From positions 90,001 through 122,000 of the forward strand of contig CAURWT010000003.1 in NCBI GenBank assembly GCA_963528875.1: DNA of 32,000 nucleotides, in the 5' to 3' direction. Under the pieces are notes generated by a model, which was not told where the DNA came from, searched no databases, and saw only the letters and a list, made by a program, of their open reading frames with translations. Shown here piece after piece: positions 18,331 to 30,664 of the stretch (positions are counted from its first letter, which is position 1; each line of letters starts with the position of its first letter). The position numbers and the translations under genes are program-made. This stretch comes from an uncultured Candidatus Saccharimonas sp. (GTDB lineage Bacteria > Patescibacteriota > Saccharimonadia > Saccharimonadales > Saccharimonadaceae).

Positions 18331-20421
18331 ATGAATAAAAATACTCCATTGGAAAATTTCCGAAATGTTGGTATTATTGCGCACATTGACGCCGGTAAAA
18401 CTACAACAACAGAAGGTATTCTTTACCGAACTGGTTTGACACACAAAATTGGTGTTGTTCGTGGTGAAGGCGATGGTGCAACAACCGACTGGATGGCTCA
18501 AGAGAAAGAGCGAGGTATTACAATTACTTCTGCTGCTGTTACTTGTTTCTGGAAAGACCACAAAATTAATATTATTGACACCCCAGGACACATCGACTTT
18601 ACTGCTGAAGTGGAGCGTTCACTTCGCGTTCTTGACGGTGCTGTGACTGTTTTTGACGGTAAAATGGGTGTGGAAGCTCAGTCTGAAACTGTTTGGCGAC
18701 AGGCTGACAAATACGGTGTGCCACGCGTTTGTTTTATTAATAAAATTAACCAAACTGGTGGTGACTTCTATAAATCAATTAAATCAATTCACGATCGTTT
18801 AAGCAAGCAGGCTTTCCCAATTCACTTGCCAATTGGTTTCGAACAAGAAATTAATGGTGTTGTCGACCTTATTGACATGAAAGCTTACACTTATGATAAC
18901 TATGCTGACCATGAGTTGAAAGTTGGTGAAATTCCAGCAGACATGCTTGAAAAAGCTAAAAACGCACGCTCATTACTTGTTGAAAATGCGGTTGAGGCTG
19001 ACGATGAATTAATGATGCGATTCTTCGAAGAAGGTGAGGAATCAATTACAATTCCTGAACTTAAAGCTGCGCTTCGAAAACGAGTTCTTGCTGGCGATTT
19101 CTTCTTGGTAACTGGTGGTGATGGCCGTGGTGTGATCGTGGAAAAGGTTCTTGATCTTATTAATGATTATCTTCCAAGCCCACTTGATATTGCTTCGATT
19201 AAAGGAACTGATGCAAAAACTGGTGAAGCTATTGAGCGCAAACCGTCTGTAGATGAACCAACTTCTGCGCTAGCATTTAAGATTGCAACCGACCCATTTG
19301 TTGGAAAACTCGTATTCGTGCGTGTTTATAGCGGTAAAATTACTGCTGGATCATATGTTCTTAATACAATGACTGGTAAAAAAGAACGAATTGGGCGAAT
19401 CGTTCGAATGCATGCTGATAAGCGTGAAGAAATTTCAGAAGTTACTGCTGGCGACATTGCTGCTGTTGTTGGCTTGAAAGATGTTACAACTGGTGCAACT
19501 CTTTGTGATTTGAACCATGGTGTGATTCTTGAAGGTATTGAGTTCGCCGAACCTCCAGTTTCGATTGCGGTTGAGCCAAAAACCAAAGCCGACCAAGAAA
19601 AAATGGGAATTGCTCTTCAACGACTTGCTGAAGAAGACCCAACTTTCCGAGTTCACACAGATGAAGAAACTGGTCAAACAATTATGTCAGGAATGGGTGA
19701 GCTTCACCTTGATATCTTGATCGACCGAATGAAGCGTGAATTTAACGTTGAAGCTAATGTTGGTGAGCCACAAGTTGCTTTCCGTGAAACTATTCGTGGA
19801 ACTGCTGAAGCTCAAGGTAAACACGCAAAACAGTCTGGTGGTCGTGGTCAATATGGTGATGTTTGGATTCGTTTTGAGCCAAATGAACCAGGAAAAGGCT
19901 TTGAATTCTTTGATGAAATTAAAGGTGGTGTTGTGCCACAAGAATATCGCAAACCAGTTGAACAAGGTGTGCTTGAAACGCTTGAAGGCGGTGTGATTGC
20001 TGGTTACCCAGTAGTTGACGTTAAAGCTACACTTTATGATGGTTCTTACCACGATGTCGACTCAAGCGAATTAGCCTTTAAATTGGCCGGTGCGCTTTCA
20101 ACTCGTGAAGGTATTAAGAAGGCAAATCCAGTTCTTCTTGAACCTGTGATGAAAGTTGAAATTACAACTCCTGAAGAATTTATGGGTGATGTAATTGGAG
20201 ACTTGAACTCACGACGCGGTCGAATCGATGCTATGGAAGATCTAATGGGTGGAACAAAGCTCGTTAAAGGTTTCGTTCCTCTTGCAAATATGTTTGGTTA
20301 CACTTCAGACCTACGCTCAATGAGTAAAGGTCGTGCAGCTTCAACGATGGAGCTTGCGCAATACGAAGAAGTTCCACCTAACGTTGCACAAGAAATTATC
20401 GAAAAGCGAAACGCTAAATAA
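18331..20421 (+). CDS. fusA: Translation elongation factor G
   Basis: 696 aa with [20 protein letters not shown] and NKIN GTPase motifs plus EF-G domains II-V. No rpsL or rpsG lie upstream. Confidence 0.97.
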
Positions 20422-20442
20422 TAATTTCAAAAAATTTAAAAA

Positions 20443-20468
20443 CTACCTCTTTCGGGAGGTGGTTTTTT
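20443..20468 (+). terminator. Rho-independent terminator after fusA
   Basis: CTACCTCT (20443-20450) pairs with GGAGGTGG (20455-20462) with two G-U pairs. The loop is a UUCG tetraloop and a T6 run follows. Confidence 0.75.
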
Positions 20469-20480
20469 ATATTTAATGTA

Positions 20481-20505
20481 TGATATAATAGTATGGAATT
20501 ATAAT
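20481..20505 (+). promoter_or_regulatory. Candidate promoter(s) of the island operon
   Basis: Extended -10 TGaTATAAT (20481-20489) and a second TATAAT (20500-20505). No good -35 is present. Confidence 0.4.
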
Positions 20506-20526
20506 AAAAAAAGGGAGCTTTTAAAT

Positions 20527-20751
20527 ATGGCGAGAACAAGTATTCAATCAGTTGAGCCAATGGTAGCAGATTTAGTTAATGGCTGGTTGAAGTCATATGG
20601 TTTGGATTATAAATTAGAACAAGAAACTTTAAATTCTGAGATTGATAACGCATTGTCAGAATACTATTCCAAGCGAGGAGGGGCTGGAGGAAATCGCCCC
20701 GATACTAATTTATTTAGAAAAATAAATTGTAGGAAGGAGGGGCAATTTTGA
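20527..20751 (+). pseudogene. 74-aa mini-ORF, probably the N-terminal remnant of an HsdR-N/Mrr-like PD-(D/E)xK nuclease domain
   Basis: The ATG at 20527 follows a GGGAG SD. Translation: MARTSIQSVEPMVADLVNGWLKSYGLDYKLEQETLNSEIDNALSEYYSKRGGAGGNRPDTNLFRKINCRKEGQF. The sequence reaches an RPD motif (20695-20703) but ends before any ExK. Its last codons are the SD of the next gene, and the TGA overlaps the next start (TTGA, 20748-20751). Confidence 0.35.
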
Positions 20752-21677
20752 AAGTAATTGATTTTGAAGAATTTAAGATTTATAATGAGGAGAACAAATA
20801 TAGTTTTTTATATGCGGATTTTGATGATGAAAATAAATTCTTGAAAGGATTAGTTTCGTATATTTTTGATGAGAAAAATTTGCTCCTTTATTCTGAACTA
20901 AATACAGGAATAGAATTTACTCCAGGCAAAAAAGAATATGTAAAGCTTTATAAAAATATTCAATATTTCTTAGATGAGGAGTTAATGAAAATACCAATAG
21001 TTGATTTAGATGATGAGTTGGAAAAGATATTGGGCGAAGAATATGAATGTTTTAGAGATTCCGATGGTAAGTTCTTAATAAGAAAAGATAAAATAGGAAA
21101 AATTGGGGAATATATTTTTCATTTAATATTAACAAGATATTTTGGGTACAAATGTATAATTCCAAAATTCCGTATTACAACAGATAGAAATATGAGTGCA
21201 TTTGGTATTGATACATTATTTTATGATGATGAAAAAAGTGAAATTCTATTTGGAGAAGCAAAATTTTCAAAGGAACTAAAAAATGGAGTTTCCTTGGTTA
21301 ATCGATCTTTGAAAGATTATGAGCAAAATATAAAAGAAGAATATTTATTGGTTCTATCAAATGAAATCTTTAACTTAAATTCAAGCTTTTTGAATAAGTA
21401 TAAAGATACAATTGAAGTCTGTAGAACCTTCGAAGATTTTATTGATGAATCAAATATAAGTAGTATTATAATACCTATTTTTATTGCTCACGGTGATGGT
21501 AATAAAGAAAAAATAGAAAAGTTTTTAGATAGATTAAGTAGCATTAATTCTAATGAAATGTTAGGGTTAGAGACAAAATATTTGTTAATCTCTTTACCAG
21601 TAATTGATAAGGAAAAATTTGTTGATTTTGCAATCAGAATGGCGGCGAAAAAAGTTCATGAATACGAATGTAAATAA
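20748..21677 (+). CDS. DUF1837/HamA-like PD-(D/E)xK nuclease-fold protein (Hachiman-like effector)
   Basis: 309 aa. The TTG start lies 7 nt after AAGGAGG (20734-20740). The core KIGEYIFHLIL...FGIDTLFYDDEKSEILFGEAKFSK gives GE...D(21210-21212)...ExK(21255-21263), the arrangement I recall for DUF1837/Cap4-type nucleases. It is very AT-rich. Confidence 0.6.
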   Translation: MKVIDFEEFKIYNEENKYSFLYADFDDENKFLKGLVSYIFDEKNLLLYSELNTGIEFTPGKKEYVKLYKNIQYFLDEELMKIPIVDLDDELEKILGEEYECFRDSDGKFLIRKDKIGKIGEYIFHLILTRYFGYKCIIPKFRITTDRNMSAFGIDTLFYDDEKSEILFGEAKFSKELKNGVSLVNRSLKDYEQNIKEEYLLVLSNEIFNLNSSFLNKYKDTIEVCRTFEDFIDESNISSIIIPIFIAHGDGNKEKIEKFLDRLSSINSNEMLGLETKYLLISLPVIDKEKFVDFAIRMAAKKVHEYECK

Positions 21678-23715
21678 TGCACAGGTGTATAGGGAAAATT
21701 ACATACTTGCGTTAAACAATGTAGATAATAAAACGGAATATGAAAAATTTCATGCAGATTCTCTATTTAATCTGGGATTAACAATGTATTCAAGAGGATA
21801 TTCATTTAAGTCAGCTATTTATAATGGATTTGCTTGTAGTCATATTGATAGTAATTTATCATTACATCCAGAGCAAATGCGAGTTTTAAATCTAATTAAA
21901 GGTAATAATGGTCTCATCTTTAGTGCGCCAACAAGTTTTGGAAAGACGTTTGTTGTATTTGAATATATAGCAAGAGAGCAGCCTAAAAATGTTGTTTTGA
22001 TTGTACCTACATTAGCACTAGTTGATGAGTATAAACAAAAAATACTCAAAAAATATAGAAACTCGTTTTTGGATTATAAGATTTATACGAGCATTGATAT
22101 AGAAAAAGAATATGATTTTGAACACAAAAACTTATTTATTTTAACTCATGATAGAGTGGTTAATGAAGACGTAATTTCGATTTTTTCAGAAATAGATTTT
22201 TTGGTTATTGATGAGGTCTATAAGCTTAAGACTGATTTTAATAATGATAGAGTATTGATACTGAACTTGGCATATAAATTTCTAATGGAAAAATCAAGAA
22301 AGTATTTATTACTAGCTCCTTTCTTAAAAGAAGTCAGAAATATTGATAAAATAGAAAATAAACCGCTATTTTTTTCAAGCAACTTTTCACCTGTTGTAAA
22401 TAAGGTTATAGAGCGAAGAATTGTTGATGAAAAAGATAGATATTTAGAAACTGTAAAAATTGTAAATGAACTGGAGAATACCAAGCGACTGGTTTATTTC
22501 CACACAGTGTATTCGCTCAATAAATTTTTATCTGAAAAATTTGAATTTAATATTAAAATTGGTAAAAGTAGGATTTTAGATGAATTTATAGAATGGGCTT
22601 CAAAAGAAATACATGAGGAATGGTCGGTCTTAAGGGCATTAAATAAAGGTATTTTAGTGCATCACGGTCAGTTACCTTTAGGGATAAGGATGCTACAATT
22701 AGAACTATTTGATGATATAGACAGTGGATATAATATAATGCTATGTACATCCACATTGTTGGAAGGTGTTAATACTGCGTGTGAAAATATTATTATAACA
22801 AAGCCTGCAAGAAATAAAACTAAATTTGATGCATTTGATTTTTTTAATCTTATAGGGAGAACGGGAAGACTTTGCCAATATTATTTAGGGACTGCATATT
22901 ATATACGTGGTACTAACGACAGAAAGTATTGTAAGGAAGAAGCTTTAAAGTCTATTGAATTTGAGTTAACCGACAATAGTATTGATATGGATATTAATTC
23001 CGATAGATATAATGAACATCCTGAATTTTTGAGTTTATTGCAAGAAATGGGAATCACATATGATGACTATATAAAGCATTTTGCAACACAATTTAGATTT
23101 TCAACAGTAAGTGCGATGTATAATAGATTCAAACAAAATAAAAACTTATTATACAAGGCGATCAATGATATGCTTATAAGTGATCAACCATCAAAACTAA
23201 ATACTGTTAGGGAGATATATAAAATTATTGAAAGTAATTTTAATAATTATAAGCTTAAAACATTTATTATTAATGCTTTGACATATAAGAGCGTAAATAG
23301 TGTTAGGGCGACTATTGAACGGGTTCGTGGAGCATTCGTTGAGTTAGATTTAGATTCTATAATAAGTGAAGTTTTAAAATTGAAAAATAGTTATATAGAA
23401 TATGATTTCTATAAGAAAACGGAAGCTATTTTATATTTTATGGAGTTAGATAATGTATCAGAGAATATAAAAAAGCCTATTGAGGAGGAAATACTAAGAG
23501 TAATAGAGAATAAGTATTTTATGCATTCTCCAGGTAAAAAAATATTAAAAGATATGGGGATTTATGATAAGGATATAAATAATATTTCTAAAATTATTGG
23601 TGAAGATATAAGTTCTGTTGATGAATTACAAAGTAAAATACAGGAAAATTACGAAAAAGTTATTTCTAAAATAAGTGTTATATCAAGGTTTATTGTTGAA
23701 AAAATGATAAGATGA
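21658..23715 (+). CDS. Ski2/Hel308-like SF2 helicase (HamB-like)
   Basis: The ORF is open from the TTG at 21604. The ATG at 21658 is preferred and overlaps the upstream gene by 20 nt. Motifs: Walker A APTSFGKT (21925-21948), motif II DEVY (22210-22221), HHGQLPLGIR, TSTLLEGVN (22747-22773) and IGRTGR (22852-22869). The ~250-aa C-terminal region has no motif I recognise. Confidence 0.65.
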   Translation: MNTNVNNAQVYRENYILALNNVDNKTEYEKFHADSLFNLGLTMYSRGYSFKSAIYNGFACSHIDSNLSLHPEQMRVLNLIKGNNGLIFSAPTSFGKTFVVFEYIAREQPKNVVLIVPTLALVDEYKQKILKKYRNSFLDYKIYTSIDIEKEYDFEHKNLFILTHDRVVNEDVISIFSEIDFLVIDEVYKLKTDFNNDRVLILNLAYKFLMEKSRKYLLLAPFLKEVRNIDKIENKPLFFSSNFSPVVNKVIERRIVDEKDRYLETVKIVNELENTKRLVYFHTVYSLNKFLSEKFEFNIKIGKSRILDEFIEWASKEIHEEWSVLRALNKGILVHHGQLPLGIRMLQLELFDDIDSGYNIMLCTSTLLEGVNTACENIIITKPARNKTKFDAFDFFNLIGRTGRLCQYYLGTAYYIRGTNDRKYCKEEALKSIEFELTDNSIDMDINSDRYNEHPEFLSLLQEMGITYDDYIKHFATQFRFSTVSAMYNRFKQNKNLLYKAINDMLISDQPSKLNTVREIYKIIESNFNNYKLKTFIINALTYKSVNSVRATIERVRGAFVELDLDSIISEVLKLKNSYIEYDFYKKTEAILYFMELDNVSENIKKPIEEEILRVIENKYFMHSPGKKILKDMGIYDKDINNISKIIGEDISSVDELQSKIQENYEKVISKISVISRFIVEKMIR

Positions 23716-23719
23716 GAAA

Positions 23720-24180
23720 GCTACCTATCTATCTCCTTGTCCATATATTTCTCATAATTTTTTCTGATTTAATATAATTCTTTCATATCAGATTTTGTAG
23801 AAGAATACTCTTGCATTAGAGTATTCTTTTTCTTGTAATTTATCAAGTTTATCTAAAATATCCTTGGAATTTGGAAGTTTTGAGCAATATTTTTTAGGTC
23901 TAAAAGGGCATTTTTATAGAGTGTTATTTCTGATTTGTGTTCTTCAAAAAAGCTTCATCAGATGGATCTTTCTTATATTCCAGATATATTTGGCGATACG
24001 ATTTTATGATATGAACTTATTCTATAGTATTTGACATAGCTGAAATTTTCTTATCAATAACAAATTCTTTTCAGCCATTACGAAGTTAGCAATTAAAGAT
24101 GTTGTTAAATATGCAGATAAAAGGATTGTTGCGACTAAAAAAATTGTAAATAAGTAATAAAAGCTTATATTACGCTTGCG
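23720..24180 (-). pseudogene. Decayed gene remnant (multiple frameshifts and stops)
   Basis: The - strand gives protein-like stretches spread over all three frames: ISFYYLFTIFLVATILLSAYLTTSLIANFV; KEFVIDKKISAMSNTIE; HIIKSYRQIYLEYKKDPSDEAFLKN; FFEEHKSEITLYKNALLDLKNIAQNFQIP; SKDILDKLDKLQEKEYSNARVFFYKI. No intact ORF of 60 aa or more exists on either strand across about 690 bp. Confidence 0.3.
23801..23834 (+). terminator. Rho-independent terminator of the island operon
   Basis: Perfect 11-bp stem AAGAATACTCT (23801-23811) / AGAGTATTCTT (23818-23828), loop TGCATT, then TTTCTT. Confidence 0.7.
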
Positions 24181-24205
24181 CTTAGCCCGCTCAAAGTGCT
24201 ATAAT
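24176..24205 (+). promoter_or_regulatory. Candidate promoter of the HU-like gene
   Basis: TTGCGC (24176-24181), 18 nt spacer, TATAAT (24200-24205). It is bracketed by the inverted repeat AAAGTGCT (24193-24200) / AGCACTTT (24221-24228). Confidence 0.4.
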
Positions 24206-24220
24206 TAAGGCAGGAAATCA

Positions 24221-24376
24221 AGCACTTTTAAGGAAATAACTTGGTGATTTTGGCAAGGTGAAAGGAGGAATCTTTAAACCCTTATAGCAAACCAACAAAA
24301 GTGCTACATCACTTTTTAAAATTTGCTAAGCACATTTAAGAATCATCTATAGCATTTTTAATTAACTGCTATAGCA
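24221..24376 (+). promoter_or_regulatory. Structured, repeat-rich 5' leader upstream of the HU-like gene
   Basis: AGCACTTTT (24221-24229) is complementary to AAAAGTGCT (24297-24305). A competing hairpin AAAAGTG (24297-24303) / CACTTTT (24310-24316) is followed by a T-run. There is a 19-nt near-palindrome at 24319-24337, three TATAGCA copies (24283, 24348, 24370) and the perfect palindrome TGCTATAGCA (24367-24376). Confidence 0.4.
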
Positions 24377-24407
24377 AAACAAATCAAAATCCTTTTAAGG
24401 AGGAAGA

Positions 24408-24845
24408 ATGAGTCTTAAATATAAAGTTGTTCAACTTGTAAACCCTGCAAAACGAGATGAGCCAAAAAAGTTTTACGCTCAACTGGCTGAATCTGGCCGT
24501 GTTGATCTAGATGAAATCGCTAATAGTATTTCAGAAACCTCAACCACGGTGAGCCATATTGATGTGCATGCAGTTTTGCTAGCACTAACAGATGAGCTTT
24601 TGAAACGATTAGAGCGAGGCGAAAGTGTTCATCTTGGAAAACTTGGTTATTTTCATACAACTATTCAATCTAAAGGTCAAGCTAAAGAGTCTGATGTAAC
24701 AGCAAGCTCGATTGAGGGTGTGAAAGTTCGTTTTGTGGCGGGTGATGCCTTAAAAGATAAGCTGAAGCCAGCACACTTTGAGAAGGTTGAAAAGGCTAAA
24801 ACTACCGAGCCAAAACCAACCGAAAACAAGCCGGCGGGTGCTTAA
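24408..24845 (+). CDS. HU-like DNA-binding protein (long, Bacteroidota-style HU family)
   Basis: 145 aa. MSLKYKVVQLVNPAKRDEPKKFYAQLAESGRVDLDEIANSISETSTTVSHIDVHAVLLALTDELLKRLERGESVHLGKLGYF... matches my memory of the YKVV...KFYA...G.V.L.E....I...ST....D..AVL HU-like family. It has a Pro/Lys-rich tail and a strong SD (AAGGAGG). Confidence 0.65.
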   Translation: MSLKYKVVQLVNPAKRDEPKKFYAQLAESGRVDLDEIANSISETSTTVSHIDVHAVLLALTDELLKRLERGESVHLGKLGYFHTTIQSKGQAKESDVTASSIEGVKVRFVAGDALKDKLKPAHFEKVEKAKTTEPKPTENKPAGA

Positions 24846-24863
24846 AATTAACTAAAGAAAAAA

Positions 24864-24914
24864 TTTTAAAACCAGCTTCGAGTGGCAAAAAGAGCTATCG
24901 GGCTGGTTTTAAAA
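24864..24914 (+). terminator. Long inverted repeat / probable terminator after the HU-like gene
   Basis: Perfect 13-bp arms TTTTAAAACCAGC (24864-24876) / GCTGGTTTTAAAA (24902-24914) with a 25-nt loop. A T-rich tract follows. Confidence 0.5.
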
Positions 24915-24926
24915 TTGGTTTTTTTG

Positions 24927-24935
24927 TGTTAAAAT
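24927..24935 (+). promoter_or_regulatory. Extended -10 element upstream of the FemAB-family gene
   Basis: TGtTAAAAT (24927-24935). The ATG at 24945 is only 9 nt downstream. Confidence 0.35.
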
Positions 24936-24944
24936 AGAGGATAT

Positions 24945-25955
24945 ATGAAAAGCCTTGTAGAGATTTTAAAAGAAGAATATCAAAACTATTGCCAAGATAA
25001 AAATATTGACTGGTTGCAAAGTGTAGAATTTGCCGAAATGCGCAAAAAACGTGGCGCGGAATGCTATTTTGTAGCGTTAAAAAATGGTGAAAATATCGAA
25101 GTTGCTGGGTTAATTTCTAGCAAAAATAAGCGTTTCGATTTGGTGATGGTTGAACAAAACGGCGCTTCGCAAGCAGATTTTGTGGATTTTTTAGTGAAGA
25201 GTGAAGAATTTGCACGCAAGCATGGAGCAATCTCATATCGGATTTTGCCAAAAGTTGTGCGTGCGCTTCGCAATGATAAACTTGAAATTATTGAAAGTAA
25301 CAATCTCGAATGGCTGAATGAACCGCTATTAAAAGCTGGTTTTAAATATCATTCTGGCTTCAAGCACGAGTTTGATATGGATGTAAACATGCATGTTTAT
25401 TTGAAAGATCTAACAGAATTAAGTGAAGATGACATGGCGGCGACTTATAACCAAACTACTCGCCGAAATCTGCGCGCAGCAATGAGAAAAGGCGTGAATA
25501 TTCGCAAGGTTGAGGAGAGCGAATTTGCTGATTTTGTGGCGATTTTAAAGAGTTCGAACCAGAAAAATGGCGTTGGCACGCGGGATGAAGAATATTACCA
25601 CAATTTAAAAACTTGTTTTGGTGAGCAAGCGCATTTTATGGGCGTAGAATTTGAAGGAAAGCTAATTTCTGCTGGCGTATTTATCTTTTCGAAAAATGAA
25701 GTTGTTTATTTTGAAGGTGGTTCTTTGCAGGAATATCGCAAAATTCCAGCTTCAACATTTTTGCAAGATTATATGATTAAAGAGGCAATTCGCGCAGGAG
25801 CTTCGAAATATAATTTTTATGGTATTACGGCAGAACCAAAGGCGAGTTTGTTGCGTTTTAAGGCTGGTTTTCGTGGTGTGGCGGTTGAGTATGCTGGTGA
25901 ATACCGTAAAAGATATTTGTTACGCACAATTTTTAGTAAAATCTTTCGAAAATAG
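24945..25955 (+). CDS. FemAB-family peptidoglycan interpeptide-bridge aminoacyltransferase
   Basis: 336 aa with DWLQSVEFAEMRKKRG, NQTTRRNLRAAMRKGVNIRKV and YFEGGSLQEYRKIPASTFLQDYMIKEAIRAGASKYNFYGI. This is the Fem/MurM-type pattern. Confidence 0.75.
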   Translation: MKSLVEILKEEYQNYCQDKNIDWLQSVEFAEMRKKRGAECYFVALKNGENIEVAGLISSKNKRFDLVMVEQNGASQADFVDFLVKSEEFARKHGAISYRILPKVVRALRNDKLEIIESNNLEWLNEPLLKAGFKYHSGFKHEFDMDVNMHVYLKDLTELSEDDMAATYNQTTRRNLRAAMRKGVNIRKVEESEFADFVAILKSSNQKNGVGTRDEEYYHNLKTCFGEQAHFMGVEFEGKLISAGVFIFSKNEVVYFEGGSLQEYRKIPASTFLQDYMIKEAIRAGASKYNFYGITAEPKASLLRFKAGFRGVAVEYAGEYRKRYLLRTIFSKIFRK

Positions 25956-26033
25956 TTTAATATTTTGAATTTTAGGCATTAGAATAAAGATACGAGGTTT
26001 TACCTTAGTAATTTTGAAAGCAGGTGCAAAGCC

Positions 26034-26429
26034 ATGGCTGGATTTAACATTTCTATGGAGCGAATTAACAATGATTATTCGAGAGTTGTTGATATTGGTA
26101 ACGAGATTAAGATGCTTAAAAGCAAACTTTATGATGCATACGAATTACAAAAAAGTATTTGCGAAGATTTGAGACTTGCGGGTGAAGCTTTAGGTTATGC
26201 AAGAAAGGAGTGTCGATGGGCGAAAAGATTATGCAAGCATGGAGAAACAGATGAGGGTAAACATTCAGAATATGACAGAAACTTGAAATATTGGAAAGAT
26301 TCGGTCAGGATGCTCACTAAAGAAAAAAGAAAGACCAGTCAAACAATTAGCGACCTGAGAGGCGCAATAGAAAGTGGCAAAAAACTTTTAACAGCACGAG
26401 TTGATGCTCGCCATGATTGGGAAACCTAA
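26034..26429 (+). CDS. Hypothetical helical protein (131 aa)
   Basis: The ATG follows an AGGTG SD. The protein is basic and looks coiled-coil-like, with a Cys/His cluster (KECRWAKRLCKHG). I recognise no family. Confidence 0.5.
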   Translation: MAGFNISMERINNDYSRVVDIGNEIKMLKSKLYDAYELQKSICEDLRLAGEALGYARKECRWAKRLCKHGETDEGKHSEYDRNLKYWKDSVRMLTKEKRKTSQTISDLRGAIESGKKLLTARVDARHDWET

Positions 26430-26433
26430 CTTT

Positions 26434-26455
26434 AACCACCGAAAGGTGGTTTTTA
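26434..26455 (+). terminator. Rho-independent terminator
   Basis: AACCACC (26434-26440) / GGTGGTT (26445-26451), GAAA tetraloop, then a T-run. Confidence 0.75.
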
Positions 26456-26484
26456 TTGACAAAAAATATGATCTATGGTAAAAT
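26456..26484 (+). promoter_or_regulatory. Consensus promoter of the 148-aa orphan gene
   Basis: TTGACA (26456-26461), 17 nt spacer, TGgTAAAAT (26476-26484). Confidence 0.6.
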
Positions 26485-26544
26485 TATAACCTATCTAAAA
26501 CAAAAGAGTTCTAGATAAGATTTATTTAAAGGAGGTTGTCGCTT

Positions 26545-26991
26545 ATGGCAACTCGTAATTTTAAACAAATAGCAAACCTTGGCCGTACGAGAGGTTATGA
26601 GAACGCAGTTAAGGTTTTTGAGTCTAGCTTTCTAAGTGAAACGATCGAAGACCGTGAGGAATCGCTCAACTCAGCTTGGAAAATAAGGGGAGAGCTTTTA
26701 GATACGATCGGTGAGTTATCGAACAAATTAGAGAATTCGGTAAATCCATCGCAAGATGACTATAAGTTATTGGAGTTATTCCAAAAATGTCTAAGTCGTA
26801 TTGATAAAAAAATAATTCCTAGATTAAATAGGACGACTCAGGATTTAAAGGGAACTGAAGCTAGAGGTATTCAAAAAGATAAAGTAGTGAAAAGCTCAAA
26901 CTATAAAGATAAGAAACATGGTTTTCATACTAAATGTGTTCCAGATAAAAAAGGAATACAAGCGCGATTACAACATTGCACGAACAAATAA
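26545..26991 (+). CDS. Hypothetical protein (148 aa)
   Basis: The ATG at 26545 lies 9 nt after GGAGG (26531-26535). The TTG at 26536 in the ORF track abuts the SD and is unlikely. The body is helical and the tail is very basic with HGFHTKC...LQHC. Confidence 0.5.
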   Translation: MATRNFKQIANLGRTRGYENAVKVFESSFLSETIEDREESLNSAWKIRGELLDTIGELSNKLENSVNPSQDDYKLLELFQKCLSRIDKKIIPRLNRTTQDLKGTEARGIQKDKVVKSSNYKDKKHGFHTKCVPDKKGIQARLQHCTNK

Positions 26992-27039
26992 ACAAAAACG
27001 GTAATGGCTTGCTAGCTAAAAATGTTTCAAAAAACATCC

Positions 27040-27066
27040 AACCGCTCAAAATGAGCGGTTTTTTCT
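27040..27066 (+). terminator. Rho-independent terminator
   Basis: AACCGCTC (27040-27047) / GAGCGGTT (27053-27060), loop AAAAT, then TTTT. Confidence 0.75.
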
Positions 27067-27094
27067 TTACGCCTATGTTTTTTTATGTTAAAAT
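27066..27094 (+). promoter_or_regulatory. Promoter of the aminotransferase / DsbA-like pair
   Basis: TTTACG (27066-27071), 17 nt spacer, TGtTAAAAT (27086-27094). Confidence 0.5.
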
Positions 27095-27123
27095 GGTAAA
27101 AGTTAAAGAAGGAGGTTTGAGTT

Positions 27124-28269
27124 TTGGACGATTTTAAATATTTGCCAGAAAATGCTCATTATTTTGATTCGGCGTGCCAATCTTTGCGACCGCAACCAGT
27201 TTTAGACGCTTTAAATGATTACTATTTAAATTTTAACTCTTGTGGAGAGCGTGTAAAATATGCTTGGGGTAGAAAAGCCGATAAAAAGGTTGAAGAAACT
27301 CGCGAGGCGGTTTTAGATTTGTTAAAGCTAAAAGAAAAAGATTATTTTGTGAGCTTTACGCTTAACACAACCTATGGTTTAAATTTGTTGCTCTCGCAGC
27401 TTGAATTACCCGTTTCGAAAGTGATAACTAGTGAGATTGAACATAATTCGGTTTTTCTTTCAACGATTGAATTCGCTAAAAAACACCAAATTGAACGAAT
27501 CGTGCTTGAGCGTGAAGAAGATGGATCGATTTCACTCGAAAATGATTTTTCGAAAGCCTTGGTTGTGGTTAATGCGGCTTCAAATATTGATGGAAGGCGA
27601 CTTGAAAACATTAAAGATTTGGTAAAGAAAATTAAAAAACAAGGCGGATTTGTAATTATTGATGCCGCACAAGCGTTAGGTTCAAGCTACGAATTACTCC
27701 AAAAAGTTCCAGCCGATGCAATCATTTCAAGCGCGCACAAGATGTATTCGGCAAGCCTTGGAATTATGGTTGTGCGAAAAGATTTTGCAAAATTTATAAA
27801 AACTTCTTTTGTTGGTGGTGGAATGGTTTCGGGCGTTTCGAAAGAATCTTATGAAGTATTAGACGGCGAGCATATTCATACGCTTTTCGAGCCAGGGCTT
27901 CAAGCTTGGGGTGAAATTATTGCTTTAAAAACAGCAATTGATTGGTTGAAAAAACAAAAGAAAACTTCACGAGTTGATGAGTTTTCAAAAGATATTTTTG
28001 AGTTTTTAAAAAACCAAAATGGCGTTAATATTTTAAATAAAAAGCCGGCTCCTGTGATTAGTTTTTACCACGACAAGCTTGATGCGCACTTGATTGCACA
28101 AGCTTTGAGCGATGAAGGAATTATGGTGCGAAGTGGTTATTTTTGTGCGCATTATTATTTAAAAGAAGTTCGAAAACTGCCACATTTAGTACGAATTTCA
28201 ATTGGCTTACATAATACTGAAGCTGATGTTGTGAAATTAAAAGAAGTTTTGGAAAGGATTTTTAGCTAA
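27124..28269 (+). CDS. Class V aminotransferase / cysteine desulfurase-like protein
   Basis: 381 aa. The TTG start lies 8 nt after GGAGG. It has the PLP-lysine context SSAHKMYS and the C-terminal catalytic-Cys context VRSGYFCAHY (compare RxGxHCA in SufS/NifS). Confidence 0.75.
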   Translation: MDDFKYLPENAHYFDSACQSLRPQPVLDALNDYYLNFNSCGERVKYAWGRKADKKVEETREAVLDLLKLKEKDYFVSFTLNTTYGLNLLLSQLELPVSKVITSEIEHNSVFLSTIEFAKKHQIERIVLEREEDGSISLENDFSKALVVVNAASNIDGRRLENIKDLVKKIKKQGGFVIIDAAQALGSSYELLQKVPADAIISSAHKMYSASLGIMVVRKDFAKFIKTSFVGGGMVSGVSKESYEVLDGEHIHTLFEPGLQAWGEIIALKTAIDWLKKQKKTSRVDEFSKDIFEFLKNQNGVNILNKKPAPVISFYHDKLDAHLIAQALSDEGIMVRSGYFCAHYYLKEVRKLPHLVRISIGLHNTEADVVKLKEVLERIFS

Positions 28270-29348
28270 TGATTTGTATTGCTGCGTTTATAGTTTTGCT
28301 AATTATTTGGTTATTTACACCCGCTTTAAAGATTTTTGGCTTTAAAAAACAAGCGAAATCAATTAATCAAATATTTAAAAAATCAATGCATTGTTTCTCG
28401 CGAAGAGTAACTTTGCGCGCTTGTGATTCGAATTTTAAAGATGAAATTAAAAATTCAATTCTTCGAAAAATAATCGTAAAGCACAAAAAATGGGTAAAAC
28501 CAGTTTCTTGGGCGATTGAGGCAGTGGCCGGCTTGATTGTTCTAATTACAATTTGGTCTGTTCTAACAGTAATTAAATCAGCTTTAGCACTATTTGTTTT
28601 TGGAACTTGTGATATTCAACGGCCGGCTTCTTGTGCACTAAATTCAACCGAGGCTTGCTCAATTGATGGCGGAAATACTGAAAATCCAATAGTTTCATGG
28701 TTTACGGATTGGGGGCAAATCTTTAATGCGATGCCTGCAAAATTTCGAAATTGGAATGCTCAAGATTATGTTGTAAAAAATTCAACTTATCGTGGTGAGT
28801 TCTCTAATGAAGTTTCGAAAGATGCGAGCGTGGCGATTGATATTTTTGACCCTGGTTGTATTGTTTGTCGGCGCTCATTTATAAATCAGAAAAATAGCGG
28901 ATTCTTTAAAAATCATAAAACCCATCTCTTACCATATCCGATTGATGGAAAGTTTAAAAATTCTGAGTTGATTTCGAAATATCTTGAAGCTGTTCGAGGA
29001 ATTCAACCTGAAAATGGTAAGAAGATTTCGGCTGAATGGATGATTATTGAGAAGATTTTTACTGAAAAGGATGGAAAAGGAGCTTTATTCCAAGAGAAGT
29101 TTAATGGCGAAAATCAAACTTCAACAACGGCGGAGGAAACTGAGAAGATTTTGCAAAGCTGGCTGAAAGATGCGGGTTATTCAGATATGCAAGTTGAGGA
29201 AATTTCGAAAAAAGCTAAAAGTGATGAAATCCAGAAGCGTATTAAAGAGAATATTCGAGTTGTAAATGAAGAAATTAAGACGAAGAGCATTCCGACTTTG
29301 ATTTATGAAAACCAGAGACACGAGGGTTTATATAAAGTTTCGAAATAA
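28269..29348 (+). CDS. Membrane-anchored thioredoxin-fold (DsbA-like) protein
   Basis: 359 aa. Two N-terminal TM helices are followed by a Cys-rich loop (GTCDIQRPASCALNSTEAC). The thioredoxin-type domain has CxxC (DPGCIVCRR) and a cis-Pro-like IPTLIY near the C-terminus. The start overlaps the upstream stop (TAATG). Confidence 0.5.
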   Translation: MICIAAFIVLLIIWLFTPALKIFGFKKQAKSINQIFKKSMHCFSRRVTLRACDSNFKDEIKNSILRKIIVKHKKWVKPVSWAIEAVAGLIVLITIWSVLTVIKSALALFVFGTCDIQRPASCALNSTEACSIDGGNTENPIVSWFTDWGQIFNAMPAKFRNWNAQDYVVKNSTYRGEFSNEVSKDASVAIDIFDPGCIVCRRSFINQKNSGFFKNHKTHLLPYPIDGKFKNSELISKYLEAVRGIQPENGKKISAEWMIIEKIFTEKDGKGALFQEKFNGENQTSTTAEETEKILQSWLKDAGYSDMQVEEISKKAKSDEIQKRIKENIRVVNEEIKTKSIPTLIYENQRHEGLYKVSK

Positions 29349-29363
29349 TTTTTATAAAACCTC

Positions 29364-29392
29364 TTTACAAAATATTGAAGATTAGGTATAAT
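29364..29392 (+). promoter_or_regulatory. Promoter of tuf (monocistronic)
   Basis: TTTACA (29364-29369), 17 nt spacer, TATAAT (29387-29392). Confidence 0.55.
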
Positions 29393-29400
29393 TATAGGTA

Positions 29401-29444
29401 GCGTCGCGTCGTGTGTTTTGCTAAAACAGTGACTCGTGCGACGC
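29401..29444 (+). promoter_or_regulatory. GC-rich 5'-terminal leader hairpin of tuf
   Basis: The outer stem is GCGTCGC (29401-29407) / GCGACGC (29438-29444). The inner stem is TGTTTT (29414-29419) / AAAACA (29423-29428). It starts within a few nt of the predicted TSS. Confidence 0.45.
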
Positions 29445-29480
29445 GCATAATATTATTAATAAAAGGAGAAATTCTAAAAA

Positions 29481-30664
29481 TGGCAGAATTTGACCGCTCA
29501 AAGCCACACGTAAACGTTGGTACAATGGGACACGTTGACCACGGTAAAACAACTCTTACTGCGGCTATCACAGCAGTTCTTGCAAAACGACTTCCATCGG
29601 AAGTTAACAAACCAATCGCGTACGATCAAATCGACAACGCACCAGAAGAAAAAGCTCGTGGTATTACGATTGCTTCTTCTCACCAAGAATATGAATCAAA
29701 AAACCGACACTATGCTCACGTTGACATGCCTGGACACGCAGACTATGTTAAAAACATGATTACTGGTGCCGCTCAGGTTGATGGTGCTGTTCTTGTGATT
29801 GCAGCTACAGATGGTCCTATGCCACAAACTCGTGAACACGTTCTTTTGGCAAAACAAGTTGGTGTGCCTAAGATTGTTGTTTTCTTGAACAAAATGGATA
29901 TGGCTGACGAAGAACTTGTTGAATTGATTGAAATGGATGTTCGTGAACTTCTTTCAGCTAATGGATTTGACGGCGACAACGCTCCAATCATCAAAGGTTC
30001 AGCTCTTAAAGCTCTTGAAGGTGATGAAAAATACGAAGACGCTATTATGGAATTGGTTGATGCTATGGATACATACATCGAAGAACCAGTTCGTGATATG
30101 GACAAACCATTCTTGATGCCTATCGAAGACGTTTTCTCAATCAAAGGTCGTGGTACAGTTGCTACAGGACGAATCGAACAAGGTGTTGTTAAACTTAACG
30201 ACGAAGTTGAAATTGTTGGTTTGAAAGATTCACAAAAAACTGTTGTTACAGGTATTGAAGCTTTCAAAAAATCTCTTGATCAAGGTCAAGCAGGTGACAA
30301 CGCTGGTCTTCTTCTTCGAGGTATTGATCGAGATCAAATCGAACGTGGACAGGTTATTGCTGCTCCTGGCACAATTACTCCACACACAGAATTTGAAGCT
30401 GAAGTTTACATCTTGAAGAAAGATGAAGGTGGACGACACACTCCATTCTCAAAGGGTTATAAACCACAATTCTACTTCCGAACAACTGACGTTACTGGTG
30501 AAGTTGAACTTCCAGCTGATAAAGAAATGGTTATGCCTGGTGACAATGTAACTTTCAAAGTTAAATTGCAAGCACCTATTGCTATGGAACAAGGTTTGAA
30601 CTTTGCTATCCGTGAAGGTGGACGAACTGTTGGTGCTGGTGTTGTTACAAACATCATCAAATAA
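29481..30664 (+). CDS. tuf: Translation elongation factor Tu
   Basis: The ATG at 29481 follows [33 protein letters not shown] is the canonical EF-Tu N-terminus. DMPGHADY and NKMD are present. The GTG at 29411 in the ORF track would add a non-homologous extension that covers the leader hairpin. Confidence 0.97.

What the first reader, a model, noticed from the sequence alone, without database searches (positions are those of the whole stretch)
20470..24170. AT-rich island with a Hachiman-like nuclease-helicase operon inserted directly after fusA
**Seen in the sequence**
- Immediately after the fusA terminator, composition drops sharply. Spot counts of single 60-nt lines give about 13-32% G+C inside the helicase gene, against about 40-47% in fusA.
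- The change reverses near 24170.
- The stretch holds a compact operon with its own promoter (20481-20505) and a strong terminator (23801-23834).
- The operon is a mini-ORF, then a 309-aa protein with a GE...D...ExK core, then a 685-aa Ski2/Hel308-type SF2 helicase.
- All three are translationally coupled (a TTGA overlap and a 20-nt overlap).

**Established knowledge**
- DUF1837 (HamA) followed by a helicase (HamB) defines the Hachiman anti-phage system.
- fusA and tuf are normally adjacent in the str operon.

**Inference**
- This is a horizontally acquired, divergent Hachiman-like defence module in a defence-turnover hot spot.
- No integrase, transposase or methyltransferase accompanies it, so how it arrived is unclear.
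- If the host really is a CPR-type episymbiont with few known defences, this would be notable.
Basis: partly seen in the sequence, partly recalled or inferred. Interest (0 to 1): 0.78.

Follow-up and report, generated by a model that had tools for sequence, protein, structure and literature searches.

The report
Hachiman defence cassette in Saccharibacteria hotspot
The AT-rich stretch after fusA is an intact, ordinary Hachiman (HamA nuclease plus HamB helicase) anti-phage system. It sits in a strain-variable defence slot of a human-associated Saccharibacterium (CPR), and almost the same cassette occurs in Streptococcus, Mogibacterium and Leptotrichiaceae.

Summary
Window 20468-24172 has 27.2% G+C against 37.6% elsewhere, and comparison with related contigs places the variable segment at exactly those coordinates. 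It encodes HamA (20748-21677; Pfam HamA 53 bits against a cut-off of 25; E121/D155/E170/K172 invariant) and HamB (21658-23715; PADLOC HamB, E=2.5e-100, full length). So this is a standard Hachiman system, not a divergent one.

The "mini-ORF" and the promoter did not arrive with the cassette. They are the 5' remnant of a type IIG restriction-modification gene that is still intact at this locus in sister lineages.

The host is a Candidatus Saccharibacteria lineage. Between the fusA terminator and the HU gene, related lineages (EF-G 98-100% identical) carry at least ten different cargos: two unrelated Hachimans, type II, IIG and III R-M, CBASS, an OLD-like ATPase, PDC-S46, and a DUF6731 pair of unknown function.

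The HamAB cassette is 90-92% identical in DNA to copies in Streptococcus suis, Mogibacterium diversum and a Leptotrichiaceae bacterium, and dN/dS is 0.14-0.29. One contig carries the island at 99.6% identity inside flanks that are only 90-96% identical, which is a homologous-recombination import.

Verdict: new member of a known kind, in a core-gene-flanked defence hotspot that I found undescribed for CPR. Interest is moderate.

The parts
20438..20467 (+). fusA intrinsic terminator. This is the left edge of the variable slot.
   Evidence: Terminator scan: 13-pair stem followed by a T run. Most alternative-cargo contigs lose homology to the window exactly at 20467.
20468..20706 (+). Resident leader: the 5' remnant of a type IIG R-M locus. 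It carries -10-like boxes (TGATATAAT 20481-20489, TATAAT 20500-20505), a Shine-Dalgarno sequence AAAGGGAG (20510-20517) and the ATG at 20527.
   Evidence: Contigs with an intact IIG gene (L109, L120, L126, L114) are 89-92% identical in DNA to the window up to 20714-20726. PADLOC REase_MTase_IIG matches profile positions 4-72, E=9e-11. G+C is 33.9%, intermediate. Promoter activity is inferred, not shown.
20527..20751 (+). 74-aa chimeric leader ORF. Its first 60 codons are the type IIG N-terminus. The remaining codons read into the imported cassette and across the HamA ribosome-binding site. Its stop overlaps the HamA start (TTGA).
   Evidence: BLASTP: 59/65 identical to residues 12-76 of the intact 694-aa IIG enzyme of L109. 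Junction alignment. Sequence read directly.
20707..23884 (+). Imported HamAB cassette, defined by DNA homology to copies in other phyla. It includes the HamA ribosome-binding site GGAAGGAGGGG (20732-20742) and the terminator.
   Evidence: blastn gives 91.9% identity to L101/L102 (Leptotrichiaceae) over 20707-23884. It gives 90-91% identity to L104 (Mogibacterium), L105 and L106 (S. suis) over roughly 20719/20744 to 23512-23719. Hosts were identified. G+C is 26.8%.
20748..21677 (+). hamA: the HamA/DUF1837 PD-(D/E)xK effector nuclease, 309 aa, TTG start.
   Evidence: Pfam PF08878 HamA: 53 bits against a cut-off of 25, E=5.7e-14. Fifteen PADLOC HamA profiles match. E121, D155, E170 and K172 are invariant in a 35-sequence alignment. 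The AF2 model has pLDDT 86, and its top Foldseek PDB hit is 8zue_A, E. coli Hachiman HamA, probability 0.99. dN/dS is 0.14-0.28.
21658..23715 (+). hamB: the SF2 (Ski2/Hel308-like) sensor helicase, 685 aa. It overlaps hamA by 20 nt.
   Evidence: PADLOC HamB1 PDLC00180: E=2.5e-100, residues 7-684 against profile positions 35-706 of 709. Pfam DEAD, ResIII and Helicase_C all pass their cut-offs. PDB 8zue_B (E. coli Hachiman/AbpB): E=5.4e-38. Motifs GKT95, DEVY185, TST364 and GRTGR400 are present, and dN/dS is 0.16-0.29.
23799..23836 (+). Intrinsic terminator of the operon.
   Evidence: Terminator scan. Fold of -16.8 kcal/mol, z = -3.5. The segment 23716-23884 is 82% identical to the sequence downstream of hamB in L101/L102.
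23885..24068 (.). Trailer segment of unknown origin. No intact gene; a 56-aa ORF (23864-24034) is probably spurious.
   Evidence: It is shared at about 92% identity with the Hachiman-B and type III R-M variants. It is absent from the IIG, C and other variants and from L101. No Pfam, PADLOC or Rfam hit.
24069..24172 (.). 3' remnant that is shared with contigs carrying the intact type IIG system, and also with the PDC-S46 contigs.
   Evidence: Homology of L109, L120, L126, L114, L122, L119 and L127 to the window resumes at 24069.
24173..24845 (+). Right edge of the slot: the conserved HU upstream region (TATAAT at 24200-24205) and the HU-HIG gene (24408-24845).
   Evidence: Homology of most variants to the window resumes at 24165-24173. 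Pfam HU-HIG: 118 bits.

Best explanation
Window 20468-24172 is the variable cargo of a defence hotspot flanked by core genes. It lies between the fusA terminator and the promoter region of an HU-family gene, in a human-associated Candidatus Saccharibacteria lineage.

The cargo here is a complete, canonical two-gene Hachiman system: HamA, a DUF1837 PD-(D/E)xK nuclease, followed by HamB, an SF2 helicase.

History (inferred). A promoter-less HamAB cassette of about 3.2 kb (20707-23884, 27% G+C) replaced most of a resident type IIG restriction-modification system. The closest flanking match of the cassette is in a Leptotrichiaceae (Fusobacteriota) genome. The replacement left the IIG promoter, ribosome-binding site and first 60 codons in place, plus about 100 bp at the far end. 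HamAB is therefore most likely transcribed from the old IIG promoter. It would be translated downstream of a 74-aa chimeric leader ORF whose stop overlaps the HamA start. Once inside the Saccharibacteria complex, the island moves between lineages by homologous recombination in the conserved flanks. Natural transformation is the likely entry route.

Mechanism (inferred from experimentally studied E. coli HamAB, not tested here). HamA and HamB form a heterodimer in which HamB restrains HamA on intact dsDNA. When phage infection produces damaged DNA or 3' single-stranded ends, ATP-driven HamB unwinding activates HamA. HamA then degrades phage and host DNA alike, which is abortive infection.
For: Identity of the genes:
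- Pfam HamA scores above its curated cut-off. DEAD, ResIII and Helicase_C also pass.
- PADLOC matches HamA (15 profiles) and HamB over its full length, E=2.5e-100.
- PDB: 8zue_B at E=5.4e-38. 8vx9_A/8vxy_A align across the catalytic stretch, with the query's E170/K172 opposite the E138A/K140A mutant positions.
- The Foldseek top hit is 8zue_A.
- The catalytic residues E121/D155/E170/K172 are invariant, and the helicase motifs are intact.

Selection: dN/dS is 0.14-0.29 against three other copies. HamB is 100% identical in 17 independent contigs.

Host: the five best EF-G matches (79-86% identity) are all labelled Saccharibacteria or Saccharimonadales.

Hotspot:
- Contigs with identical or 98-99% identical EF-G carry many different cargos at the same site. 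These are Hachiman-A, Hachiman-B (HamA 22% and HamB 29% identical to A), two kinds of type IIG system with a specificity subunit, a methyltransferase with a ~1400-aa IIG-like protein with or without CBASS or an OLD-like ATPase, PDC-S46, type III R-M, type II R-M, a DUF6731 protein with a membrane protein, and a deletion.
- The breakpoints are common to most variants: 20467 on the left and 24173 on the right.

IIG remnant.

Foreign origin:
- G+C is about 6 sd below the local mean.
- The cassette is 90-92% identical in DNA to copies in S. suis, Mogibacterium diversum and a Leptotrichiaceae bacterium.
- Only the Leptotrichiaceae copy also shares the 41 bp upstream and 170 bp downstream.

Recombination import: L110 matches the window at 99.6% over 20554-24451 (15 mismatches), while both flanks are 90-96% identical.

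Competence: natural competence of Saccharibacteria is reported in PMC10633639 / PMC10187176.

Mechanism literature: PMC12278908, PMC11914072 and PMC10732053.
Against: - There are no expression or phage-challenge data.
- The promoter is inferred from -10-like boxes and from conservation with the IIG locus. The consensus scan did not flag it, and such boxes are at chance frequency in this AT-rich DNA.
- HamA is only weakly similar in direct pairwise terms to the solved HamA proteins. phmmer gives E=0.16 against 8vx9_A. The Foldseek TM-score is 0.36 against 8zue_A, a much larger 531-aa protein.
- The direction of inter-phylum transfer, and Leptotrichiaceae as donor, rest on G+C match and shared flanks only.
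- The organism labels for L101-L106 come from cluster-mates at 90% identity or more (exact matches for S. suis), not from a phylogeny.
- Lineages with other cargos differ from the window by 5-9% in flanking DNA. Part of the variation is therefore between sister lineages or species, not between strains of one clone.
- No phage of this host is known, so the selective agent is presumed.
Confidence: 0.85

Rival explanations
1. The module is a decaying, non-functional remnant on its way to being replaced, like the restriction-enzyme fragments next to it.
For: The locus is littered with gene remnants. These include the IIG 5' end in the window and a type II REase C-terminal fragment fused to it in variant B. 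In some Hachiman-B contigs HamA is split or N-terminally shortened (L003, L002, L009). HamA uses a TTG start.
Against: Both window ORFs are full length, with all catalytic and helicase motifs present. dN/dS is 0.14-0.29 against copies in three other hosts. HamB is identical in 17 contigs from independent samples. A strong ribosome-binding site precedes hamA and a strong terminator follows hamB.
Confidence: 0.07
2. The island is the cargo of an integrative mobile element (prophage satellite, ICE, transposon or integron cassette) and not a passive, recombination-driven slot.
For: The same cassette occurs in four distantly related hosts. A ~160-nt terminator-containing segment (23707-23884) follows different cargos: Hachiman-A, Hachiman-B, type III R-M, and PDC-S46 at 78% identity. 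It also follows hamB in Leptotrichiaceae. A Y1 transposase fragment lies about 1.7 kb downstream of the cassette in L102.
Against: The island and its neighbourhood contain no integrase, transposase or recombinase. There is no tRNA. No direct or inverted repeats sit at the boundaries. HamB has no relatives in IMG/VR viral contigs. The L110 mosaic shows crossovers inside homologous flanks, not at fixed ends. Left breakpoints differ between cargos, from 20467 to 20726.
Confidence: 0.05
3. HamAB here serves a housekeeping DNA-repair or recombination role in a reduced genome, not phage defence.
For: HamB is related to Hel308/PolQ-type repair helicases (PMC12278908). Saccharibacteria have reduced gene sets.
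Against: The genes are dispensable. Sister lineages carry R-M, CBASS or other systems, or a deletion, at this position instead. Composition marks the genes as foreign. Copies in other hosts sit among R-M, AbiH and McrBC genes.
Confidence: 0.02
4. The juxtaposition is an assembly chimera between a Saccharibacteria contig and a low-G+C Firmicute or Fusobacterium contig.
For: Nearly the same cassette exists in co-occurring oral or animal-associated bacteria.
Against: The same junctions recur in 17 or more contigs from different studies and assemblers (SPAdes NODE, MEGAHIT k141, Logan), up to 375 kb long. The left junction lies inside an ORF that is continuous with Saccharibacteria sequence.
Confidence: 0.01

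Closest known systems
Hachiman type I (HamA/HamB), as characterised in E. coli ECOR31 (PDB 8VX9; PMC12278908) and the E. coli HamAB/AbpAB complex (PDB 8ZUE; PMC11914072, PMC10732053)
   Same: The architecture is the same: a two-gene operon with the DUF1837 nuclease first and the SF2 helicase second. The PD-(D/E)xK residues correspond to those whose mutation (E138A/K140A) was used in 8VXY. The helicase core is 30-40% similar to 8ZUE_B (E=5e-38). Profile matches run end to end.
   Different: HamB is short: 685 aa, against 729 (8ZUE_B) and 1174 (8VX9_B). HamA is 309 aa, against 259 and 531. HamA starts with TTG and is coupled to a leader ORF left over from a restriction gene. The host is a CPR epibiont. 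Nothing was tested experimentally here.
The same HamAB subfamily in Streptococcus suis, Mogibacterium diversum, Streptobacillus/Pseudostreptobacillus (NCBI-annotated 'Hachiman antiphage defense system protein HamA')
   Same: HamA is 77-92% identical at the protein level. The cassette is 90-92% identical in DNA, with the same 20-nt hamA/hamB overlap.
   Different: The genomic contexts differ: next to LlaJI-type R-M, next to AbiH/McrBC/type I R-M, or next to rpiA-deoB. The window copy is the one found in a Patescibacteria genome.
Core defence hotspots (cDHS) of Pseudomonas aeruginosa (PMC10250203) and E. coli/Acinetobacter defence hotspots (PMC10121019, PMC11723918)
   Same: It is a fixed slot between conserved core genes, filled with different defence systems in different isolates. 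No mobility genes are present, so turnover is presumably by flanking homologous recombination.
   Different: This slot is only 1.5-7 kb (one or two systems). It lies in a very small genome of an obligate epibiont, immediately after a translation-factor gene. It retains nested remnants that record the order of replacements. The literature searches here found no such hotspot described for CPR bacteria.
Type IIG restriction-modification enzyme with separate specificity subunit (PADLOC REase_MTase_IIG PDLC03616 + Specificity_II)
   Same: The first 60 codons of the window's leader ORF are 91% identical to this enzyme as found intact in L109, L120 and L126.
   Different: Only the N-terminal stub survives in the window. 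The nuclease motif is cut right after 'GGNRPD', and there is no methyltransferase or specificity gene.

Membership tests
Hachiman (HamAB) | HamA carries the DUF1837/HamA domain | tested here: met
   Pfam PF08878: 53 bits against a curated cut-off of 25, residues 89-291 against profile positions 19-218 of 230. Fifteen PADLOC HamA profiles match, best E=8.6e-13.
Hachiman (HamAB) | PD-(D/E)xK catalytic residues of HamA (E...D...ExK) are present | tested here: met
   E121, D155, E170 and K172 are invariant across 35 homologues that are 45-92% identical. In the phmmer alignment to 8vxy_A, E170/K172 lie opposite the E138A/K140A positions.
Hachiman (HamAB) | HamB is an SF2 helicase of the HamB clade with intact ATPase motifs | tested here: met
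   PADLOC HamB1 PDLC00180: E=2.5e-100, full length. DEAD, ResIII and Helicase_C score above their cut-offs. 8zue_B: E=5.4e-38. Motifs I (GKT95), II (DEVY185), III (TST364) and VI (GRTGR400) are present.
Hachiman (HamAB) | hamA lies immediately upstream of hamB in one operon | tested here: met
   The genes are on the same strand with a 20-nt overlap. There is one terminator after hamB.
Hachiman (HamAB) | The HamA fold resembles solved HamA structures | tested here: met
Hachiman (HamAB) | HamA-HamB form a heterodimer, with nuclease activation that depends on ATP and DNA damage | not testable with these tools
   No multimer prediction or biochemistry is available here. The property is inferred from PMC12278908 and PMC11914072.
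Hachiman (HamAB) | Confers phage resistance (abortive infection) | not testable with these tools
   This requires cloning and phage challenge.
Core-gene-flanked defence hotspot | The same conserved flanking genes enclose different cargos in related genomes | tested here: met
   At least 10 cargo types lie between fusA (98-100% aa identity) and HU (94-100%). Breakpoints are common at 20467 and 24173.
Core-gene-flanked defence hotspot | Cargo is dominated by defence systems | tested here: met
   PADLOC hits cover Hachiman (two kinds), type II, IIG and III R-M, a CBASS cyclase with a 2TM effector, an OLD/Gabija-like ATPase and PDC-S46. One cargo (DUF6731 plus a membrane protein) has no assignment.
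Core-gene-flanked defence hotspot | Exchange occurs by homologous recombination in the flanks, with no mobility genes | tested here: met
   L110 shows 15 mismatches over 20554-24451, against dense mismatches on both sides. There is no integrase, transposase, tRNA or terminal repeat. The other cargos were not screened exhaustively for mobility genes.
Integrative mobile element (prophage, ICE, transposon, integron cassette) | A recombinase gene and defined terminal repeats or an att site | tested here: not met
   No recombinase appears among the ORFs or Pfam hits. There are no boundary repeats and no tRNA. HamB has no viral-contig relatives.
Type IIG restriction-modification enzyme (for the 74-aa leader ORF) | A full-length fused endonuclease-methyltransferase | tested here: not met
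   Only residues equivalent to 12-71 of the 694-aa enzyme remain.

The most novel reading that the evidence does not exclude
The fusA-HU intergenic slot may be a dedicated, recombination-driven 'defence socket' of oral or host-associated Saccharibacteria. Under this reading, whole defence cassettes are taken up through it from unrelated phyla (Fusobacteriota, Bacillota) that share the habitat. They would be expressed from a resident promoter left by an earlier occupant, and then shuffled among lineages by natural transformation. If so, the unassigned cargos at the same socket would be previously unrecognised CPR defence systems. These are the 300-aa DUF6731 protein with a 156-aa membrane protein, and the 118-aa and 79-aa pair in L121. 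The socket would also be a ready-made neutral insertion and expression site for genetic work in Saccharibacteria.
Probability: 0.45. Interest if true: 0.65.

Novelty: new member of a known kind. Interest (0 to 1): 0.5.

Why it matters
Hachiman itself is well understood, so the genes alone are ordinary. The value lies in the context.

1. Recent literature states that very few defence systems have been identified in Patescibacteria, and suggests low inter-phylum gene flow for these bacteria (PMC12366544). Here, a roughly 1-Mb-class epibiont lineage keeps a slot that holds at least ten alternative defence systems. One of them is 90-92% identical in DNA to copies in three non-CPR hosts. This argues for active phage pressure and for recent cross-phylum exchange.

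2. The nested remnants and the L110 mosaic give an unusually explicit record of how a defence system is replaced without any mobile-element machinery.

3. The slot points to candidate unknown systems. It also points to a tolerated insertion site with a native promoter and terminator, which could help the new genetic tools for Saccharibacteria (PMC10633639).

Tried and rejected
- Rfam on the whole window at gathering thresholds, and on 20400-24420 at E<=1, found no credible RNA family. The only matches were chance snoRNA and miRNA hits.
- The tRNA scan found none.
- The repeat search at the island ends returned only short AT-rich chance pairs. None sat at 20467 or 24173.
- The viral-contig scan with HamB found no relatives, so prophage or satellite carriage is not supported.
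- NCBIfam gave no hit for HamA or HamB. This reflects what that library copy matched here. NCBI records do name close homologues HamA.
- The sigma-70 consensus scan was uninformative in this AT-rich DNA.
- The exact-sequence cluster look-up of the window's own proteins returned no organism names. The host was identified from EF-G relatives instead.
Those tblastn 'mini' hits are valid only as DNA-homology proxies. The correct frame, starting at ATG 20527, was used for the protein comparison.
- I asked whether the trailer (23885-24172) holds a recognisable gene fragment. Nothing was found.
- In other Saccharibacteria species the fusA-tuf interval holds membrane proteins, HtpX-like proteins and other non-defence genes. 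Some have nearly adjacent fusA and tuf. The defence slot is therefore specific to this lineage complex, not phylum-wide.

Full report

Yes. Sliding composition shows 25-30% G+C for every 500-nt window between 20501 and 24000. fusA has 39-43% and the downstream genes 36-39%. Taken as one block, 20468-24172 has 27.2% G+C against 37.6% for the rest of the window. No same-size window elsewhere falls below 35.0% (mean 37.9, sd 1.7).

- a small ORF from ATG 20527 to TGA 20751;
- a 309-aa ORF at 20748-21677, whose TTG start overlaps the upstream stop as TTGA;
- a 685-aa ORF at 21658-23715, which overlaps the previous gene by 20 nt.

Both terminators are found by the scan: 20438-20467 after fusA, and 23799-23830 after the helicase. 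The second forms a perfect 13-bp stem (-16.8 kcal/mol, z = -3.5).

The proposed promoter (TGATATAAT at 20481-20489, TATAAT at 20500-20505) is present in the sequence. It cannot be distinguished from chance by the consensus scan in such AT-rich DNA (27 sites found, 27.9 expected).

**2. What are the genes?**

The 309-aa protein passes Pfam's curated threshold for HamA/DUF1837 (53 bits against 25) and matches 15 PADLOC HamA profiles.

The 685-aa protein matches PADLOC HamB1 PDLC00180 from end to end (E=2.5e-100). It passes the DEAD, ResIII and Helicase_C cut-offs. It also hits the helicase chain of the solved E. coli Hachiman complex, 8zue_B, at E=5.4e-38.

In a 35-sequence alignment of homologues that are 45-92% identical, E121, D155, E170 and K172 of HamA are invariant. 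The phmmer alignment to 8vxy_A places E170/K172 opposite the E138A/K140A substitutions of that nuclease-dead construct. HamB keeps motifs I, II, III and VI.

An AlphaFold2 model of HamA (pLDDT 86, pTM 0.87) finds the HamA chain of 8ZUE as its best PDB match. Probability is 0.99 and E=5e-4, but TM is only 0.36 against a protein nearly twice as long. A classical PD-(D/E)xK restriction endonuclease follows.

The module is a regular Hachiman system, not a divergent look-alike. HamA proteins that are 77-80% identical are already annotated as Hachiman HamA in Mogibacterium diversum and Streptobacillus moniliformis. Partial S. suis entries at 87-89% identity are annotated as HamA or DUF1837.

**3. 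Who is the host?**

The best EF-G relatives among one-genome-per-species representatives are 79-86% identical. All of the top five are labelled Candidatus Saccharibacteria or Saccharimonadales. The CPR attribution is therefore supported.

Exact-sequence look-ups show that the window's EF-G and HamB occur on many metagenome contigs from several studies and assemblers, up to 375 kb long. This rules out a chimeric assembly.

**4. The locus is a defence hotspot.**

Contigs encoding the identical EF-G protein carry three different cargos between fusA and the HU gene:
- the window's HamAB;
- a second Hachiman, with HamA of 305 aa and HamB of about 870 aa. It is only 22% (HamA) and 29% (HamB) identical to the first;
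- a pair of unknown genes.

A scan of a second metagenome collection with the HU protein added more contigs, with EF-G 98-99% identical. PADLOC assigns their cargos as follows:
- an intact type IIG R-M enzyme (694-704 aa) with a specificity subunit (L109, L120, L126);
- a different IIG/methyltransferase with a specificity subunit (L112);
- a methyltransferase with a ~1400-aa IIG-like protein, alone (L113, L121), with a CBASS cyclase and 2TM effector (L116), or with an OLD/Gabija-like ATPase (L129);
- PDC-S46 (L119, L127);
- type III R-M (L123);
- a type II R-M with two methyltransferases (L125).

One contig has the slot deleted, together with the first 60 codons of HU (L132).

Homology to the window is lost at 20467 and regained at 24173 in most variants. 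Others break at nested positions: 20484-20726 on the left and 23711-24169 on the right. The slot therefore runs from the last base of the fusA terminator to just upstream of the HU promoter region.

The lineages with other cargos differ from the window by 5-7% in fusA DNA and 7-9% in HU-FemAB DNA. This is a complex of sister lineages around the species boundary, not one clone.

**5. History written in the remnants.**

The 'mini-ORF' is not a Hachiman component. Its first 60 residues are 91% identical to the N-terminus of the intact type IIG enzyme at the same place in L109 (PADLOC IIG profile E=9e-11). DNA homology to the IIG-bearing contigs runs from fusA through to 20714-20726.

Homology to HamAB cassettes in other organisms begins at 20707. 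The HamA ribosome-binding site GGAAGGAGGGG (20732-20742) belongs to that imported piece. The junction shows a short stretch of partial similarity between the two parents.

At the other end, 23716-23884, including the terminator, is 82% identical to the sequence downstream of hamB in L101/L102. The segment 24069-24172 is shared with the IIG-bearing contigs, and also with the PDC-S46 contigs. The origin of 23885-24068 is unknown.

The simplest reading, which is an inference, is that a promoter-less HamAB cassette replaced the body of a resident IIG system. It is now driven by the IIG promoter and translated downstream of a 74-aa chimeric leader.

Variant B keeps the same leader up to 20652 and the same trailer from 23731. 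In between, it carries a fragment of a type II restriction enzyme (profile positions 287-409 of 430, E=6e-49) followed by its own HamAB. This suggests a further replacement inside the same frame.

**6. Where did the cassette come from, and how does it move?**

HamA homologues at 81-92% identity lie on contigs from other bacteria. Identical or at least 90%-identical housekeeping proteins on those contigs are labelled as follows:
- L106: Streptococcus suis;
- L104: Mogibacterium diversum;
- L101-L103: Pseudostreptobacillus (Leptotrichiaceae).

The cassette DNA is 90-92% identical across all four hosts. The phyla themselves are very distant, so the transfers must be recent. dN/dS of 0.14-0.29 shows that both genes stayed under purifying selection.

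The cassette's 27% G+C matches the Leptotrichiaceae contig (28%). It does not match Mogibacterium (39.5%), S. suis (37.5%) or the Saccharibacterium (37.6%). Only the Leptotrichiaceae copy shares the extra 41 bp upstream and 170 bp downstream. A Leptotrichiaceae-like donor is therefore plausible but unproven.

In the other hosts the cassette also sits among defence genes: LlaJI-type R-M in one, and AbiH, McrBC and type I R-M in another.

Within the Saccharibacteria complex, contig L110 carries the island with 15 mismatches over 20554-24451 (99.6% identity). Mismatches are dense on both sides, where flanks are 90-96% identical. This is the signature of a homologous-recombination import, with crossovers in the leader and at the start of HU.

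No integrase, transposase, tRNA or boundary repeat is present. HamB has no relatives in viral contigs. Saccharibacteria are reported to be naturally competent (PMC10633639 and PMC10187176). That provides a plausible entry route, again by inference.

**7. How it most likely works.**

This part is by homology with experimentally studied systems and was not tested here. HamA and HamB form a complex in which the helicase holds the nuclease inactive on intact dsDNA. DNA damage or 3' single-stranded ends generated during infection trigger ATP-dependent HamB activity. [quoted passage not shown]

**8. Novelty.**

The system is a new member of a known kind.
- Full-text searches found no paper connecting Hachiman with Saccharibacteria.
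- An oral genome catalogue preprint reports, in bulk, that mammal-associated Patescibacteria have relatively diverse DefenseFinder systems.
- A 2025 functional-selection paper states that very few defence systems have been identified in Patescibacteria, and suggests low inter-phylum gene flow.
- The slot resembles the mobility-gene-free 'core defence hotspots' described for Pseudomonas (PMC10250203). My searches did not find such a slot described for a CPR bacterium.

I score interest at 0.5. The genes are ordinary, while the context is a useful and somewhat unexpected observation: a multi-allelic socket, cross-phylum near-identical cassettes, and a visible recombination import.

Noticed in passing
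L007:12137-13621; L118:1-1532; L128:8215-10000: One alternative cargo of the same slot is a 300-aa DUF6731 protein followed by a 156-aa multi-pass membrane protein. In L007 the DUF6731 gene is split into 210-aa and 79-aa ORFs. There is no PADLOC or NCBIfam hit, and only 7 homologue clusters exist in 5.8 billion proteins. Given its position, it is a candidate uncharacterised defence pair.
   Followed up: partly
window 26034-26991 (131-aa and 151-aa ORFs between FemAB and the class-V aminotransferase): This is a second hypervariable spot. In sister lineages these two coiled-coil-like proteins are unrecognisable or only 27-34% identical. The flanking FemAB and aminotransferase proteins are 93-96% identical. 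L110 shows no DNA homology over 26250-27000. Function is unknown, and there is no Pfam family above threshold.
   Followed up: no
window 20422-30664: fusA and tuf are 9 kb apart here. The interval holds the defence slot, then HU-HIG, FemAB, two small ORFs, an Aminotran_5 gene and a 359-aa ORF. In other Saccharibacteria species the fusA-tuf gap ranges from 143 bp to 4.5 kb and has unrelated content. fusA is preceded by rpoB-rpoC, a 178-aa ORF and RNase H, not by rpsL-rpsG.
   Followed up: partly
L132:1-546: In this contig the fusA terminator is joined directly to codon 61 of the HU gene. The slot, the HU promoter and the HU N-terminus are all deleted, so HU may be dispensable or the contig may represent a defective variant.
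   Followed up: no
L003:12743-13659; L002 and L009:12822-13661: In some Hachiman-B lineages hamA is split (136 aa and 99 aa) or N-terminally shortened (278-279 aa against 305 aa). This suggests ongoing inactivation of that system.
   Followed up: no
window 23707-23884 (also L119:8034-8189, L127:9437-9592, L101:9131-9304): A ~160-nt segment containing the terminator hairpin follows four different cargos in the Saccharibacteria slot: Hachiman-A, Hachiman-B, type III R-M, and PDC-S46 at 78-79% identity. It also follows hamB in Leptotrichiaceae at 82% identity. It may simply be inherited in place. The diverged copy after PDC-S46 is not explained. There is no Rfam match.
   Followed up: partly
window 27000-28750 against L018 and L016: Contigs otherwise 100% identical to the window drop to 90-96% identity over part of the aminotransferase and 359-aa genes, then return to 100%. 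These mosaic tracts indicate frequent homologous recombination in this population.
   Followed up: no
window 24173-24407: A 235-bp upstream region of the HU gene is conserved in all variants. It has a TATAAT at 24200-24205, which implies a 5' leader of about 200 nt. No Rfam family matches it.
   Followed up: no
L116:8258-9755; L129:8330-9760; L121:9124-9722: These are secondary cargos stacked behind the ~1400-aa IIG-like system in the same slot: a CBASS cyclase with a 2TM effector (L116), an OLD/Gabija-like ATPase of 476 aa (L129), and an unassigned 118-aa and 79-aa pair (L121).
   Followed up: partly
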